A stretch of 4,631 nt of DNA from a virus (taxonomy: Duplodnaviria > Heunggongvirae > Uroviricota > Caudoviricetes). The DNA is taken from positions 1 through 4,631 of the IMG/VR virus record IMGVR_UViG_2675903650_000013. One strand, 5' to 3'. A program made the translations under genes and the position numbers. The notes under the pieces were generated by a model. The model was given only the letters and a program-made list of their open reading frames with translations. It was not told the DNA's origin and made no database searches. Numbering within the stretch: position 1 is the stretch's first letter; the number at the start of each line of letters is the position of its first letter. This document shows positions 1-4,631 of this stretch, piece by piece.

Positions 1-126
1 CGACATAATCTGAATCTGAGACAACATCTGACAAGGCTGGGACGGAAGTCACTGTCGTTCTCAAAATCGGTGGAGCTGCATGACAAGGTCATCGGGCATT
101 ATCTGAACATAAAACACTATCAGTAA
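1..126 (+). CDS. 3' end of an upstream gene (5' part outside window), hypothetical protein
   Basis: Frame 1 is the only frame open from the window edge: 41 sense codons ([41 protein letters not shown]) ending at TAA 124-126. All three minus-strand frames contain stops here. G+C is intermediate, unlike the AT-rich gene downstream. No motif recognised; about a 1-in-7 chance of such an open stretch at random. Confidence 0.3.
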
Positions 127-164
127 GTTGGAGTCATTACCTTATTTGTTTATTAGGATTTTTG

Positions 165-2297
165 ATGGAACTGTTACAGGAACACGGGGCGATACTTAAA
201 GTTGTAATCATGCCTACTACTGGGGAACAAACCATAATCCAAGGTTTCGATACTGGCCTCCTCAACCCAGAGATATCCAACATTCTTTTTTTATTGGCCA
301 AAACACCAAAAGAAATTAGTGAGATTTTTGTCAATGAAAATGATAACTTTCAGCCTACTCTAAGCGGGCTAAATCCTATTTTTTTAATATCTAAAGAAAA
401 TCTTGAAAAAATACCAAATATTTATCAAACGCCATTTTACTTAATTTTTTGTGCTAAAGAAGATTTTTCGTATGTTTGTGCTTTAAAAAAACATTTTGCT
501 ATACCACCTATAATTTGTTGCAATTCTAAACGCGCTGATCTACCACTTAATAAGATTAATAGTATATACTCATTTGATAAGGTGCTCTTCTCTCGGTTGA
601 AATTCATTGAGGATAAAATAAGAAAAAATCACAGTGAAAAGAAAATATCAACGAAGTTGAAGCGAAGAGGGGCTTTATTTAATAAATCACCTTGGAGATC
701 GACGCTTAACAATTCAACACTACCCAATGAGTTGTTAATTGAATCACTTGGCTATATGCTATCTCCACCAAAAAGAATTAAAGATGGTAGTAGCAAAAGA
801 GAGTTTATAGAAATAATACTTCATAGCGTTGATGCATACACCGAATGTTTAAAGGAATTAGATATACCACTTCCAACGGAAGTCTTACTTTTTGCTCCGG
901 GTATGCACTCTTTTTTATATGATAAAAATAATGACTTTTATGAGTTAATAACGGAAAATTTATCCACAATTGAGAAAAAATTCCTTATTGATGGAGTGTT
1001 GAGGAATCCTGGCTATTCTGGAATTAGACTTGATATAAATTCAGATAGAAAAGAACTTTTTAAAAGTCCTGCTTTCCGTTACCTCACCTCACTAAGACGC
1101 GCTGAAATGCGATTAACAACAGCTGCGATTACTTTATTTAGCATAAATAAAAAAATCCCAGCAATAAGATTGCCAAATGCAATAAATCATTACTCCAATT
1201 ATTTGAAAAATCTTGAAGATCTTGCAACTTCTTCTGGGATAAATAGTGAAGCATTCATCACTAAATCTAAAGCATTCAATACTGTTATTCGAAGAGCCCT
1301 TGGTTGCAAGTTGAGAACATATATAAGTAAAAACTATAGCGATTTGTCCTTTGTTTGTGATGTACCATTGGATTGGATTAGGTTTAATAACATACCTATA
1401 ATGTTCAGTCATGAGATATCAAGAATAAATGCTACGCCTGGTAACGTTCTTCTACAGAGCGCCTCTGCTTTTCCGCGCGTTTTAGTAAAAGCATCTGAGT
1501 TGAGAAAGGTTTTAGTTATACGTTCTTTTGAGCCTGATGATCACTTAAAGTTCATATTAGAGAACGCAATTGAGATATTTAAAAAACAGATGCCAGATCT
1601 TGATTGCGAGATTATTGATGTTAGATCGAAAGCTGAGTTTATTGATGCTCTAAATCAATATCAAGGTCATGTTCTTGTTATGGATTGTCATGGAAACCAT
1701 GATGGCAATGGGAGTCATGGATGGTTAATAATAGGTGAGGATAAAGTGGACACTTGGAGTTTGAGAAAAATAGCAAGAATTCCTCCTATCGTAATTCTGA
1801 GTGCATGTTTAACATCTGCCCTAAGCGGTTCTCATGCCTCTGTTGCTAATGGCTTCGTTATAAGTGGTGCATTAAGTGTCATCGGAACATTACTGCCAGT
1901 AAATGCGATAGACTCTGCTGTGTTTGTAAGTCGGTTGATCTACCGGTTTTACGAGTTTCCTTCGACGCTATCTACAAATTTTACACATGTTAATGTAAGG
2001 CTTTTTCTTTCTGTTTTTCTTAGGATGTCCTATGCAAGCGATTTAATAAGAGGATTTTTATCTGAAGATTTGATACCGAATAATTCATGGAGGAAAGATG
2101 CAGTTGATATTAACATGTATATAAACATGCTTCACCATGATTGGTATGATTATGTAATTAACAAATTGACGATGTTAACGGGGCTCACGAAAAAAGATGT
2201 ACTTGATTTTATCGATAGAAAATTATTCATAACCGAAACTATGTGCTATAGCCAAATTGGATTTCCAGATGCAATCACAATTAGTCTTAAAGATTGA
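165..2297 (+). CDS. Large CHAT-domain (caspase-like cysteine protease) protein with an uncharacterised N-terminal region of about 440 aa; candidate defence or abortive-infection effector
   Basis: Uninterrupted 2.1-kb ORF. The ORF track starts at TTG 162, but ATG 165 is preceded by AGGA (155-158) at 6-nt spacing, so 165 is the likely start. Stop TGA at 2295-2297. C-terminal motifs read directly: HVLVMDCHGNHDGNGSHGW (His-Gly at 1689-1694 or 1716-1721), IVILSACLTS (Cys codon 1806-1808), SGALSVIGTLLPVNAIDSAVFVSRLIYRFY. This order and spacing match the CHAT / peptidase C14-like fold. No Walker A (GxxxxGK[ST]) anywhere in the protein. Confidence 0.85.
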   Translation: MELLQEHGAILKVVIMPTTGEQTIIQGFDTGLLNPEISNILFLLAKTPKEISEIFVNENDNFQPTLSGLNPIFLISKENLEKIPNIYQTPFYLIFCAKEDFSYVCALKKHFAIPPIICCNSKRADLPLNKINSIYSFDKVLFSRLKFIEDKIRKNHSEKKISTKLKRRGALFNKSPWRSTLNNSTLPNELLIESLGYMLSPPKRIKDGSSKREFIEIILHSVDAYTECLKELDIPLPTEVLLFAPGMHSFLYDKNNDFYELITENLSTIEKKFLIDGVLRNPGYSGIRLDINSDRKELFKSPAFRYLTSLRRAEMRLTTAAITLFSINKKIPAIRLPNAINHYSNYLKNLEDLATSSGINSEAFITKSKAFNTVIRRALGCKLRTYISKNYSDLSFVCDVPLDWIRFNNIPIMFSHEISRINATPGNVLLQSASAFPRVLVKASELRKVLVIRSFEPDDHLKFILENAIEIFKKQMPDLDCEIIDVRSKAEFIDALNQYQGHVLVMDCHGNHDGNGSHGWLIIGEDKVDTWSLRKIARIPPIVILSACLTSALSGSHASVANGFVISGALSVIGTLLPVNAIDSAVFVSRLIYRFYEFPSTLSTNFTHVNVRLFLSVFLRMSYASDLIRGFLSEDLIPNNSWRKDAVDINMYINMLHHDWYDYVINKLTMLTGLTKKDVLDFIDRKLFITETMCYSQIGFPDAITISLKD
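1494..1991 (+). other. CHAT / caspase-like protease domain (approximate boundaries) within CDS 165..2297
   Basis: Region spanning the His-Gly motif (1689-1721), the LSAC catalytic-Cys motif (1797-1808) and the downstream small-residue helix plus FY motif. Boundaries are estimated by eye from motif positions, not from a profile alignment. Confidence 0.65.
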
Positions 2298-2328
2298 CAA
2301 CTGTATGTAATAAATATGGCATACTTCC

Positions 2329-2369
2329 GGCACAGAGCGAATATAACAGATCAGGTTTAGCTCTGTGCC
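2329..2369. repeat. Perfect 10-bp inverted repeat (GGCACAGAGC ... GCTCTGTGCC) with 21-nt spacer, in the spacer between convergent genes; possible bidirectional terminator or protein-binding / junction site
   Basis: Arms at 2329-2338 and 2360-2369 are exact reverse complements. The spacer contains a GATC. No U-tract follows on either strand, so it is not a canonical intrinsic terminator. Confidence 0.4.
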
Positions 2370-2404
2370 ATAGGTGTACCAACTCTCATCTGAGCTAATG
2401 CTCG

Positions 2405-2599
2405 TTACTCAATAACTCCCGCAAATTTGTAAATCTTGCGTGATGCCCATTTATTTGGGCATGATTTAATATCAGGATCTGGAAAGTCTGGCCTGTATTT
2501 CTGGCCAGTTCTCCTGTTTACGCTGTTCCAGCGAAGAACGGTCGATACTGAAACGCCACAGAAGTCGGCGACTTGTTTAGTTGTCATTAAGTTGTTCAT
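2405..2599 (-). CDS. Small HTH DNA-binding protein, excisionase / AlpA-like (64 aa)
   Basis: The track ORF 2405..2665 has a non-ATG start. The first ATG (2597-2599, MNNLMTTKQV...) is preceded by a strong SD, AGGAGGTG (complement of 2605-2612). The motif TTKQVADFCGVSVSTVLRW followed by FPDP...KW resembles the lambda Xis / AlpA-type winged-helix pattern. The start overlaps the upstream stop as TAATG. Confidence 0.7.
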   Translation of the reverse strand: MNNLMTTKQVADFCGVSVSTVLRWNSVNRRTGQKYRPDFPDPDIKSCPNKWASRKIYKFAGVIE

Positions 2600-3120
2600 T
2601 ACTTCACCTCCTGCGGTGGCTCCGGTAGCGGCATCCAGTGGGTTACTTTCGATAACCAACACCAAACATACTGTTTATCGTCCGGCATTCGCTCACTACA
2701 GCTTATCCAACCATCCGGAGTTACCGGAGAGTTGCCCGACAGCTCGTTCAACTTGTAAGTCTGGCTTACAGGTTCGGCACCATGAAGCATGGCGGCGCGG
2801 CAGGCGTTCCAGCCTTCATCAAAGCCGACTATGCCATTATTTAAAGACGGACGAACATCTGGCACCATCGGCACTGGCTTGGCTATATATAGCGGCTGAA
2901 CATACCAGCCCTTTGATAACCAACTGTCAGCAATGTTTTTACTCCGTGTTATTGCCGGAATACCTAAGCCATTGTCTGAATGCAGCCATGCCACCGGTTC
3001 TGCTTCCAGCGATACCAAAGCAATTTCATAAGCACGGCGCTCAATATTGTCTTGCACATCCAGACTGCCTATGCGCTCTTTGATTTCTTTAATCAGTTCT
3101 TTGTCGGTAAATGTGGTCAT
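2599..3120 (-). CDS. Phage protein with C-terminal DUF551-like domain (173 aa)
   Basis: ATG at 3118-3120, stop TAA at 2599-2601. The C-terminus DGWISCSERMPDDKQYVWCWLSKVTHWMPLPEPP matches the DUF551-type motif (GWIS..E.LP ... THWMPLPEPP) common in enterobacterial prophage early regions. The start overlaps the upstream stop as TAATG. GGAGG lies 10 nt upstream. Confidence 0.8.
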   Translation of the reverse strand: MTTFTDKELIKEIKERIGSLDVQDNIERRAYEIALVSLEAEPVAWLHSDNGLGIPAITRSKNIADSWLSKGWYVQPLYIAKPVPMVPDVRPSLNNGIVGFDEGWNACRAAMLHGAEPVSQTYKLNELSGNSPVTPDGWISCSERMPDDKQYVWCWLSKVTHWMPLPEPPQEVK

Positions 3121-3482
3121 TATGCCCCTGCCTCCGGTGCCTTTGGTATTACTGCCCAGTGAGTGATATTGACGTTTTCAAGATCCCCGACCTGAAATGT
3201 CCACTGCCATTCTCCGGTTTCCTTTTGTCCCCAGGTGTACCAGAGAGAACGCCAGCCAATCAGCCAGCCTTCTCCGTTAGCATCAAATAACAGAACACTT
3301 TCATTTGCAGGTGGCAATTCAGCTGACACTGGTATTATTTTGTTTTCCAGTGCCGCACATTTAGCTTCAAGCGCGTCGAATGTACGTACTAGGTACTCAG
3401 CATTTGTTTCGTTCACTTTCAGATCTCGCGGTACACATTTCCCGCGAAGAAACCCTTCCATTTCGAAAACATTCATGCGCAT
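3120..3482 (-). CDS. Phage protein, DUF551-like paralog (120 aa), YfdS-like by position and length
   Basis: ATG at 3480-3482 with GGAG 8 nt upstream (complement of 3491-3494). The C-terminus EGWLIGW...NITHWAVIPKAPE parallels the neighbouring gene's GW...THW..P motif. The start region ATGCGCATGA overlaps the stop of the HD gene. The K-12 symbol yfdS is suspected from memory of a 120-aa CPS-53 protein but is not verified. Confidence 0.8.
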   Translation of the reverse strand: MRMNVFEMEGFLRGKCVPRDLKVNETNAEYLVRTFDALEAKCAALENKIIPVSAELPPANESVLLFDANGEGWLIGWRSLWYTWGQKETGEWQWTFQVGDLENVNITHWAVIPKAPEAGA

Positions 3483-4136: not shown

Positions 4137-4595
4137 TCAGGCGGTGAAAGTACCAATAAAGGTTTCTACTTTGCTGTCCTTGAATTTCTCAACAAGCAGA
4201 TCACGAAATTCGTTAGCCATTTCTTCCTGCACCGCCTCCAGCTGTATAATGCGCAGAACCAGTACCGGACGATCGCCAGTGATAATGCTGAGGCGTAATT
4301 TAAACGGACGTTCTTTCAGACCTTCAAACGGAATGCATTTAAATTCAAATGCCACTGGCATAATGTCTTTGGTCTTCGCTTCGACAGACTCCATCAGGGA
4401 GCGTTTGCCGCTGAAGTCATTATCTTCAAAATCAGCGGTCTGGTTTGCTTCAATCGTGATTTTACGGACCGCCGCAGCCGCTTTTGTTGCCTGAATGGTG
4501 TCACCATTAGCATCAAAGCCCACAAGGTAGTCGGCCCAGTCTTCAATCCATTCTGCCAGTGATTTCTGGGAGTTACGCTCGCCATTAACAGACAA
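4137..4595 (-). CDS. Hypothetical prophage protein (up to 152 aa); start codon ambiguous, possibly TTG-initiated or an N-terminally disrupted remnant
   Basis: The translation looks protein-like throughout (e.g. ...[45 protein letters not shown]...). The frame opens just after an in-frame TGA (4608-4610). The first possible start is TTG 4593-4595 with no SD; the first ATG is 4392-4394, also without SD. No domain recognised. Confidence 0.45.
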
Positions 4596-4631
4596 CAGAG
4601 CAGAGTGTCACGAACGGTGCAATAGTGATCC

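What the first reader, a model, noticed from the sequence alone, without database searches (positions are those of the whole stretch)
165..2297. AT-rich single-gene CHAT (caspase-like) protease beside a prophage operon: candidate undescribed defence / abortive-infection module
Seen directly: a 710-aa ORF whose C-terminal region carries, in the correct order and spacing, a His-Gly motif (CHG at 1686-1694 or SHG at 1713-1721), a hydrophobic strand ending in Cys (IVILSAC, Cys codon 1806-1808) and then SGALSVIGTLLPVNAID...RFY. Established knowledge: this is the CHAT / peptidase C14 catalytic-dyad architecture, and CHAT proteases are effectors in prokaryotic immunity (type III-E CRISPR TPR-CHAT/Csx29, gasdermin-activating proteases, other conflict systems). 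Inference: a CHAT domain fused to an unrecognised 440-aa N-terminus, encoded as AT-rich cargo next to phage genes, is the typical footprint of a phage-borne anti-phage or abortive-infection gene. I cannot place the N-terminus in any described system.
Basis: partly seen in the sequence, partly recalled or inferred. Interest (0 to 1): 0.85.

Follow-up and report, generated by a model that had tools for sequence, protein, structure and literature searches.

The report
Borvo (BovA) anti-phage CHAT protease
The 710-aa gene is bovA, the single gene of the published and experimentally validated Borvo anti-phage system, carried on a lambdoid prophage, so it is a real defence gene but not a new one.

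Summary
Window 165..2297 (+) is an intact 710-aa ORF, 34% GC against 47% in the neighbouring phage genes. Its C-terminus is a CHAT (caspase-like) protease. The catalytic His is H509 (the CHG motif; SHG is not conserved) and the Cys is C548. Both are invariant in 52 homologs at only 21-37% identity.

The claim that it is undescribed fails. The protein matches the PADLOC BovA model end to end (E=2.6e-240). It equals the verified Borvo protein of E. coli 403116 (Millman et al. 2022 supplement) at 398 of the 399 residues printed there. Borvo acts by abortive infection and is triggered by phage DNA polymerase (Stokar-Avihail et al.). The N-terminal ~435 aa are the family-specific BovA region, always fused to the CHAT domain, with no informative fold match.

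The gene lies between int and xis of a cdtI-like prophage, where it is orf33 of phage cdtI.

One local peculiarity: an IS1 element ends 23 nt upstream of the start codon. It separates the gene from the native upstream DNA used in the functional clone. An IS100 end closes the window on the right.

Verdict: already known, low interest. The protease substrate and the sensing mechanism of Borvo remain unsolved in the searched literature.

The parts
165..2297 (+). bovA coding sequence (710 aa plus TGA stop), the single gene of the Borvo defence system
   Evidence: ORF. PADLOC BovA E=2.6e-240, aa 4-709 against model 3-715/720. 398/399 aa identical to verified BovA of E. coli 403116. phrog_34827, 1694.6 bits.
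165..1469 (+). BovA-specific N-terminal region (aa 1-435), presumed sensor or regulatory part, with no assigned fold family
1395..1445 (+). Conserved loop aa 411-427 (PIMFSHEISRINATPGN) just before the protease domain, with low model confidence
   Evidence: P411 is invariant, and S419, T424, P425, G426 and N427 are at least 90% conserved in 52 distant homologs. pLDDT is below 50 for aa 414-425. Its role is inferred only.
1470..2294 (+). C-terminal CHAT (caspase-like, clan CD) protease domain, aa about 436-710; the Pfam envelope aa 488-592 is nt 1626-1940
1689..1691 (+). Codon of the catalytic His (H509, in DCHG)
   Evidence: Invariant in 31/31 and in 52/52 distant homologs. The alternative H518 is variable.
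1806..1808 (+). Codon of the catalytic Cys (C548, in VILSAC)
   Evidence: Invariant in 31/31 and 52/52. It aligns with the Cys strand VILGAC of Csx29 chain 8d9h_E.
1..141 (+). Right end of an IS1 element (insB C-terminus 1-126, terminal inverted repeat ending at 141), read in the same direction as bovA
   Evidence: Pfam DDE_Tnp_IS1 E=2.5e-19. Identity to the native Borvo upstream stops at 141/142. The full IS1 is seen in L004 at 5200-5977.
142..150 (.). 9-bp target-site duplication TTATTTGTT of the IS1 insertion
   Evidence: The same 9 bp abut the other IS1 end in L004 (5191-5199).
155..158 (+). AGGA Shine-Dalgarno-like motif 6 nt before the ATG, within the 23 nt (142-164) that are all that remains contiguous of the native upstream DNA
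   Evidence: Read from the sequence. Identical to the cloned Borvo fragment.
2317..2381 (.). Imperfect inverted repeat in the bovA-xis intergenic region, a possible convergent terminator (not followed by a T-run)
   Evidence: 25-nt arms, 76% complementary. Not called by the terminator scan.
2405..2599 (-). Prophage excisionase (64 aa), convergent with bovA
   Evidence: phrog_1553 excisionase E=9.4e-36. Annotated as excisionase in phage cdtI.
2599..4036 (-). Early-left prophage genes: DUF551 protein (2599-3120, carries a 99-nt in-frame deletion), a DUF551-like protein (3120-3482) and the YfdR-like 5'-deoxynucleotidase (3473-4009/4036)
   Evidence: Pfam and PHROG hits. RefSeq annotation of relatives. 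Deletion.
4137..4605 (-). 3' part of yfdQ (DUF2303), truncated by an IS
   Evidence: PF10065 E=4.6e-44, profile positions 120-269 only. Homology to intact relatives ends at 4605.
4606..4631 (+). Left end of IS100 (IS21 family)
   Evidence: The 30-nt query has 100% matches in 3,120 genomes. In L002 the match lies 61 nt upstream of IS100 istA. IS21-type genes follow at this point in L003 and L004.

Best explanation
Window 165..2297 is bovA, the sole gene of the Borvo anti-phage system. It is carried as AT-rich cargo between the integrase and excisionase of a cdtI-like lambdoid prophage. The protein has two parts: a family-specific N-terminal region of about 435 aa, and a C-terminal CHAT (caspase-like) cysteine protease with the dyad H509/C548. 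The proposed mechanism has four steps. (1) In uninfected cells the protease is held inactive by the N-terminal region (inferred). (2) During infection the phage family-A DNA polymerase, or a consequence of its proofreading-domain activity, is sensed. This step is published for the allele that matches this one at 398 of the 399 printed residues: T5, SECphi4 and SECphi18 escape through missense changes in the exonuclease cleft, and co-expression of SECphi4 polymerase with Borvo is toxic. (3) The activated protease cleaves one or more unidentified targets (inferred from the invariant dyad and from other CHAT effectors). (4) The cell arrests or dies before phage release, which is abortive infection. 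This is also published: cultures collapse at high MOI and survive at low MOI. In this particular lineage an IS1 insertion 23 nt upstream of the start codon separates the gene from its native upstream DNA. Whether this copy is expressed is therefore unknown.
Against: The verified sequence is printed only to residue 399, so identity over the CHAT half is inferred from the full-length profile match and from E. coli alleles that differ by at most 5 aa. Y92 is specific to this allele where others have C92, although the column is variable. No protease activity, substrate or direct polymerase binding has been published in the searched library. I could not confirm from text that catalytic-site mutants of BovA were tested, because the figure is held only as an image. 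The IS1 upstream may abolish or change expression, and no promoter-like site was called in either the native or the IS1 junction upstream.
Confidence: 0.93

Rival explanations
1. The gene is bovA, but in this lineage it is a transcriptionally orphaned and effectively silent copy. The IS1 insertion 23 nt upstream of the ATG cuts it off from its promoter, inside a prophage that is being eroded by IS elements. On this reading it provides no defence here.
For: Only 23 of the 134 nt of native upstream DNA present in the functional clone remain adjacent to the gene. The insertion is a simple IS1 event with a 9-bp duplication. The same prophage has IS100 inside yfdQ, and this window has a 99-nt deletion in the DUF551 gene. 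No promoter-like site was called at the junction.
Against: The ORF is fully intact and the exact allele is found on at least 65 assemblies. IS1 is oriented so that insAB' transcription reads towards bovA, and the Shine-Dalgarno-like motif is retained. The consensus scan also fails to call a promoter in the native upstream region that is known to drive a functional clone, so it is uninformative here.
Confidence: 0.3
2. BovA does not kill the cell by cleaving host proteins. Instead its protease directly cleaves the phage DNA polymerase or another phage protein. Either this blocks replication, or it releases a toxic fragment, in the way Csx29 releases fragments of Csx30.
For: All escape mutations map to the polymerase. 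The closest structural relative, Csx29, acts by cleaving one dedicated partner (established knowledge of type III-E Craspase). The substrate of BovA is unknown.
Against: Culture collapse or arrest at high MOI points to an abortive outcome. Polymerases of T5 and SECphi4 lack clear sequence homology yet both trigger Borvo, which argues against a simple shared cleavage site. No dedicated substrate gene is conserved next to bovA.
Confidence: 0.15
3. One reading: an undescribed CHAT-based defence or abortive-infection module distinct from known systems.
For: RefSeq and GenBank label it only 'CHAT domain-containing protein' or 'hypothetical protein', and its PHROG family is 'unknown function'. Sequence inspection alone therefore gives no name.
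Against: There is a full-length BovA profile match, and the protein matches the verified Borvo gene at 398 of the 399 printed residues.
Confidence: 0.01

Closest known systems
Borvo system, BovA of Escherichia coli 403116 (Millman et al. 2022; IMG gene 2646127138)
   Same: Same gene. Both are 710 aa, 398 of the 399 printed residues are identical, the printed CDS DNA is identical, the 23 nt before the ATG are the same, and the profile match is full-length. Both are single-gene systems.
   Different: Y92 here instead of C92. IS1 replaces the native upstream DNA from position -24. Residues 400-710 of the verified protein could not be compared directly.
orf33 of CDT-I converting phage cdtI (NC_009514), and its counterpart in phage Ayreon (MF807953)
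   Same: 99.3% identical protein in the same position, int - bovA - xis - DUF551 - yfdR-like - yfdQ.
   Different: Five amino-acid differences. There is no IS1 or IS100 in the phage genome. It is annotated 'hypothetical protein'.
Csx29 (TPR-CHAT) of type III-E CRISPR (Craspase)
   Different: The NCBIfam Csx29 model scores 14 bits against a cut-off of 300. There is no TPR region, no Cas7-11, no CRISPR array and no Csx30-like substrate gene nearby. Activation is by target RNA rather than by phage polymerase.
SAVED-CHAT (cyclic-oligonucleotide-activated protease filaments)
Separase (eukaryotic clan CD protease)
   Different: Eukaryotic, much larger, regulated by securin. Identity is only 10-12%.
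Lit and ietAS (protease-based abortive infection systems)
   Same: A protease effector activated by a single phage protein, with an abortive outcome.
   Different: Unrelated protease folds (Lit is a Zn-metalloprotease that cleaves EF-Tu; ietS is a serine protease with an ATPase partner). This rests on established knowledge and was not tested here.

Membership tests
Borvo / BovA | Full-length match to the BovA profile (PADLOC PDLC03831) | tested here: met
   E=2.6e-240, 797.8 bits, aa 4-709 against model 3-715/720.
Borvo / BovA | Sequence identity with the experimentally verified BovA (E. coli 403116) | tested here: met
   398/399 printed residues are identical (Y92 against C92), and 265/265 printed CDS nucleotides are identical. 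Residues 400-710 are not printed in the held supplement.
Borvo / BovA | Stand-alone gene with no conserved partner gene | tested here: met
   The neighbours differ completely between the E. coli prophage, the Pantoea ICE, a second ICE and a metagenomic island.
Borvo / BovA | N-terminal BovA region fused to a C-terminal CHAT domain, about 700-790 aa in total | tested here: met
   The N-region profile retrieves 505 clusters, and the full-length ones have the same layout. CHAT is detected at the C-terminus in 6 of 9 distant members sampled.
Borvo / BovA | Protection against phages (T5, SECphi4, SECphi18) by abortive infection, triggered by phage DNA polymerase | not testable with these tools
   Published for the 403116 allele. 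Not measured for this allele or for its IS1-disrupted upstream context.
CHAT domain / clan CD caspase-like proteases | Pfam PF12770 at or above the gathering score | tested here: met
   26.6 bits against 24, E=4.9e-6, aa 488-592.
CHAT domain / clan CD caspase-like proteases | Caspase-hemoglobinase fold | tested here: met
CHAT domain / clan CD caspase-like proteases | Conserved His(-Gly) and Cys, each after a beta-strand | tested here: met
   H509-G510 follows strand 503-508 and C548 follows strand 542-546. Both residues are invariant in 52 distant homologs.
CHAT domain / clan CD caspase-like proteases | His and Cys side chains juxtaposed in 3D; measurable peptidase activity | not testable with these tools
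Type III-E Csx29 (TPR-CHAT) | Match to NF041237 at its cut-off, and association with Cas7-11 and a CRISPR array | tested here: not met
   14 bits against a cut-off of 300. No cas genes or repeats are present in the window or in 20 kb of a relative.
SAVED-CHAT | N-terminal SAVED sensor domain | tested here: not met

The most novel reading that the evidence does not exclude
The evidence leaves two modestly novel readings open. (a) The IS1 insertion 23 nt upstream of bovA is a natural off-switch or rewiring of a potentially self-toxic abortive-infection gene, fixed in an E. coli lineage seen in at least 65 assemblies. (b) The family-specific N-terminal 435 aa form a previously unclassified sensor of the phage polymerase proofreading domain, including the invariant but disordered PxMxxHExSRIxxTPGN loop just before the protease, and that loop acts as a pseudo-substrate or autoprocessing latch. 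Neither reading changes the identity of the gene.
Probability: 0.25. Interest if true: 0.35.

Novelty: already known. Interest (0 to 1): 0.1.

Why it matters
As a discovery it does not matter. The gene is the published Borvo system and standard defence-finder profiles detect it. It has two practical uses. First, it shows that RefSeq, GenBank and PHROG annotation ('CHAT domain-containing protein', 'hypothetical protein', 'unknown function') still hides a validated defence gene, including in the sequenced phages cdtI and Ayreon. Second, Borvo's substrate and its way of sensing phage DNA polymerase are still unsolved in the searched literature and the PDB. The domain map, the invariant residues (H509, C548, T550, G568, P411, P48) and the natural IS1-disrupted allele recorded here could therefore help in designing mechanistic experiments.

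Tried and rejected
1. SHG (H518) as the catalytic His: rejected, because the column is variable.

2. Membership of Csx29 or SAVED-CHAT: rejected.

3. An internal duplication, that is a pseudo-caspase plus active caspase as in separase, detectable by sequence: hhalign between the four segments gave nothing (probabilities at most 1.3%).

5. Looking for the N-terminal region fused to other effectors, which would show it to be a portable sensor: none was found among the top 150 of 505 clusters. The shorter hits look like fragments.

6. A solved Borvo structure: a PDB sequence-profile search found only a weak Csx29 match (E=0.01).

7. Promoter calls: the consensus scan found none upstream of bovA, in either the native or the IS1 context, so it says nothing about expression.

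8. Confirming from text whether BovA catalytic mutants were tested by Millman et al.: the word Borvo is absent from the preprint's main text and the relevant figure is held only as an image.

9. A mechanistic Borvo paper from 2025-2026: none in the held library.

Full report
**1. The observation**

The window holds an open reading frame at 162..2297 on the + strand. Its ATG at 165 gives 710 aa beginning MELLQ. The region is AT-rich: 34.2% GC against 46.8% for the phage genes to its right. At that composition stop codons should occur about once per 14 codons (my arithmetic), so an open frame of 710 codons is not chance.

- C508-H509-G510 lies at 1686-1694.
- S517-H518-G519 lies at 1713-1721.
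- C548 lies at 1806-1808.

Pfam CHAT (PF12770) matches aa 488-592 at 26.6 bits, above the gathering score of 24 (E=4.9e-6).

**2. Which residues matter**

A word-indexed search found 34 homologs at 31-100% identity; most are about 710 aa long, a few are truncated. In an alignment of 31 of them, D507-C508-H509-G510 and S546-A547-C548 are invariant. H518 of the SHG motif varies (N14, P7, H6 and others). I then aligned 52 cluster representatives that are only 21-37% identical to the window protein. The only invariant columns were P48, P411, H509, C548, T550 and G568. The dyad is therefore H509/C548, and CHG is the catalytic His-Gly.

**3. The fold**

An AlphaFold2 model built on the alignment has mean pLDDT 81.9 and pTM 0.83. 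H509 follows strand 503-508 and C548 follows strand 542-546. Structural matches were:
- Foldseek against the PDB put Csx29 first (E=7.7e-6), then separases, DdvA, SAVED-CHAT and caspases-4/-11.

The caspase-like fold is well supported. I could not measure the His-Cys distance, because model coordinates are not exposed to scripts.

**4. What it is**

The PADLOC library gives a full-length match to BovA: E=2.6e-240, 797.8 bits, aa 4-709 against model positions 3-715 of 720. BovA is the only gene of the Borvo system.

The supplement of the Millman et al. preprint (bioRxiv 10.1101/2022.05.11.491447) lists candidate SG178 as 'Borvo', marked 'v' (verified), from Escherichia coli 403116, described as 'CHAT protease', BovA, IMG gene 2646127138, 710 aa. 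The cloned fragment is 2,569 bp. The table prints the first 399 residues and the first 399 nt of the clone. Comparison with the window gave the following:
- The window protein is identical at 398 of 399 positions (Y92 here, C92 there).
- The 265 printed coding nucleotides are identical.
- The 23 nt before the ATG are identical.

Column 92 is variable in the family (C16, I8, V2, T2 and others), so Y92 is probably tolerated. Other E. coli alleles differ from the window protein by 3-5 residues. The exact window protein is in the public collection, in a cluster of 508 members labelled 'CHAT domain protein'.

**5. What is known about how Borvo works**

These points come from papers and were not tested here. 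Stokar-Avihail et al. (bioRxiv 10.1101/2022.08.27.505566) used the E. coli 403116 system under its native promoter in MG1655. They reported the following:
- Phages T5, SECphi4 and SECphi18 escape Borvo through missense mutations in the proofreading cleft of their DNA polymerases.
- Expression of wild-type SECphi4 polymerase is toxic only in Borvo-containing cells, and the escape variants relieve this.
- Liquid-culture infections collapse or arrest at high MOI and survive at low MOI.

They conclude that Borvo acts by abortive infection triggered by the phage polymerase. They state that direct and indirect sensing are not distinguished.

Later papers call Borvo 'poorly understood' or list its mechanism as unknown. 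I found no mechanistic Borvo study in the held library up to mid-2026. A sequence-profile search found no solved Borvo structure in the PDB.

**6. The N-terminal 435 residues**

It is part of the BovA profile, so it is family-specific rather than unknown. My tests gave the following:
- Pfam finds nothing there.
- hhalign finds no internal repeat.
- A profile of this region, searched against 1.84 billion cluster representatives, found 505 clusters (303 at E<=1e-10). Nearly all full-length hits are 700-790 aa with the region at the N-terminus.
- Six of nine distant members sampled also show CHAT at the C-terminus.

The two parts therefore travel together as a fixed architecture. I saw no case of the N-region attached to another effector. 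A strongly conserved stretch (aa 411-427, PIMFSHEISRINATPGN; P411 invariant, T424-N427 at least 90% conserved) coincides with a low-confidence loop immediately before the protease domain. That it acts as a regulatory latch is my inference only.

**7. Genomic setting**

Thirty-two complete E. coli genomes carry at least 80% of the window. In NZ_CP063046 the order is yjjG | integrase | bovA | DUF551 | hypothetical | yfdR | yfdQ | yfdP | cI-like repressor, followed by replication and late genes. This is a lambdoid prophage at the yjjG-side attachment site.

The same protein (99.3% identical) is orf33 of the CDT-I converting phage cdtI and is also present in phage Ayreon. In phage cdtI it lies between the integrase and the excisionase; in both phage records it is annotated 'hypothetical protein'. 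Its PHROG family (phrog_34827) is labelled 'unknown function'.

In other genera the homologs sit in different mobile contexts with no conserved neighbour:
- between TraU and TraC genes of an integrative conjugative element in Pantoea;
- beside integrases and relaxase genes of another element;
- next to an 881-aa SMC_N/AAA_23 protein.

This fits a single-gene, horizontally mobile defence cargo.

**8. What is peculiar to this window**

*IS1 on the left.* Positions 1-141 are the right end of IS1. They include the InsB C-terminus (Pfam DDE_Tnp_IS1, E=2.5e-19) and the terminal repeat ending at 141. Identity with the native Borvo upstream stops exactly at 141/142. In complete genomes with the same allele, the whole IS1 lies between int and bovA and is flanked by a 9-bp duplication, TTATTTGTT. 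The gene therefore keeps only 23 nt of the 134 nt of native upstream DNA that the functional clone carried. IS1 is oriented so that its own transcription runs towards bovA. Whether the gene is expressed here cannot be decided in silico, because the promoter scan calls nothing in either context.

*IS100 on the right.* Positions 4606-4631 are the left end of IS100, which truncates yfdQ. Sixty-two of the 65 collection blocks with this exact protein are 2-5 kb contigs. The window looks like a typical repeat-bounded assembly contig.

*A deletion.* The window lacks 99 nt inside the DUF551 gene relative to all eight otherwise 100%-identical contigs.

**9. Comparison with known systems, and verdict**

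The gene works like other CHAT-protease immune effectors such as Csx29 and SAVED-CHAT, but it fails their membership tests:
- The Csx29 model scores 14 bits against a cut-off of 300.
- There are no cas genes nearby.
- There is no SAVED domain.

It meets every testable criterion for Borvo/BovA. The functional guess of a CHAT-based abortive-infection gene on a prophage is right. The claim of novelty is wrong.

Novelty: already known. Interest: low. The residual value lies in the unresolved biochemistry of Borvo and in the natural IS1-disrupted allele.

Noticed in passing
window 1-150: The right end of IS1 (insB C-terminus, terminal repeat ending at 141) abuts the gene 23 nt before its ATG, with a 9-bp target duplication TTATTTGTT at 142-150. 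This displaces the native Borvo upstream region by the length of the IS.
   Followed up: yes
window 4606-4631: The left end of IS100 (IS21 family) truncates yfdQ (DUF2303). The window is a repeat-bounded contig, and most public contigs with this exact protein are 2-5 kb for the same reason.
   Followed up: yes
window 2653-2656: A 99-nt in-frame deletion in the DUF551 gene (206 aa reduced to 173 aa, removing GKSYGW...EEPA) relative to eight contigs that are otherwise 100% identical. No flanking direct repeat was found. It could be a genuine strain variant or an assembly artefact.
   Followed up: partly
window 2317-2381: An imperfect 25-nt inverted repeat (76% complementary, 15 nt between arms) lies between the convergent bovA and excisionase genes. 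It is not followed by a T-run and its function is unknown.
   Followed up: no
window 1395-1445 (aa 411-427): The motif PxMxxHExSRIxxTPGN is highly conserved across homologs at 21-37% identity, yet it is modelled as a low-confidence loop just before the CHAT domain. It is a candidate regulatory or autoprocessing element.
   Followed up: partly
window 438-440 (codon 92): This allele has Tyr92 where the verified BovA, phage cdtI and other E. coli alleles have Cys. The column is variable across the family.
   Followed up: partly
L015 4001-6133 (phage cdtI NC_009514), and phage Ayreon MF807953: Sequenced temperate phages carry bovA annotated only as 'hypothetical protein'. In phage cdtI it lies about 2 kb from the cdtABC toxin genes, so one prophage carries both a toxin and a defence gene.
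   Followed up: partly
L011 4192-6627; L013 4052-6697: Large uncharacterised genes sit immediately upstream of bovA homologs: an 811-aa HATPase_c_3 protein in a Pantoea ICE, and an 881-aa SMC_N/AAA_23 protein in a metagenomic contig. They may be neighbouring defence genes.
   Followed up: no
literature (PMC12322248): [quoted passage not shown] The family may therefore include split forms.
   Followed up: no
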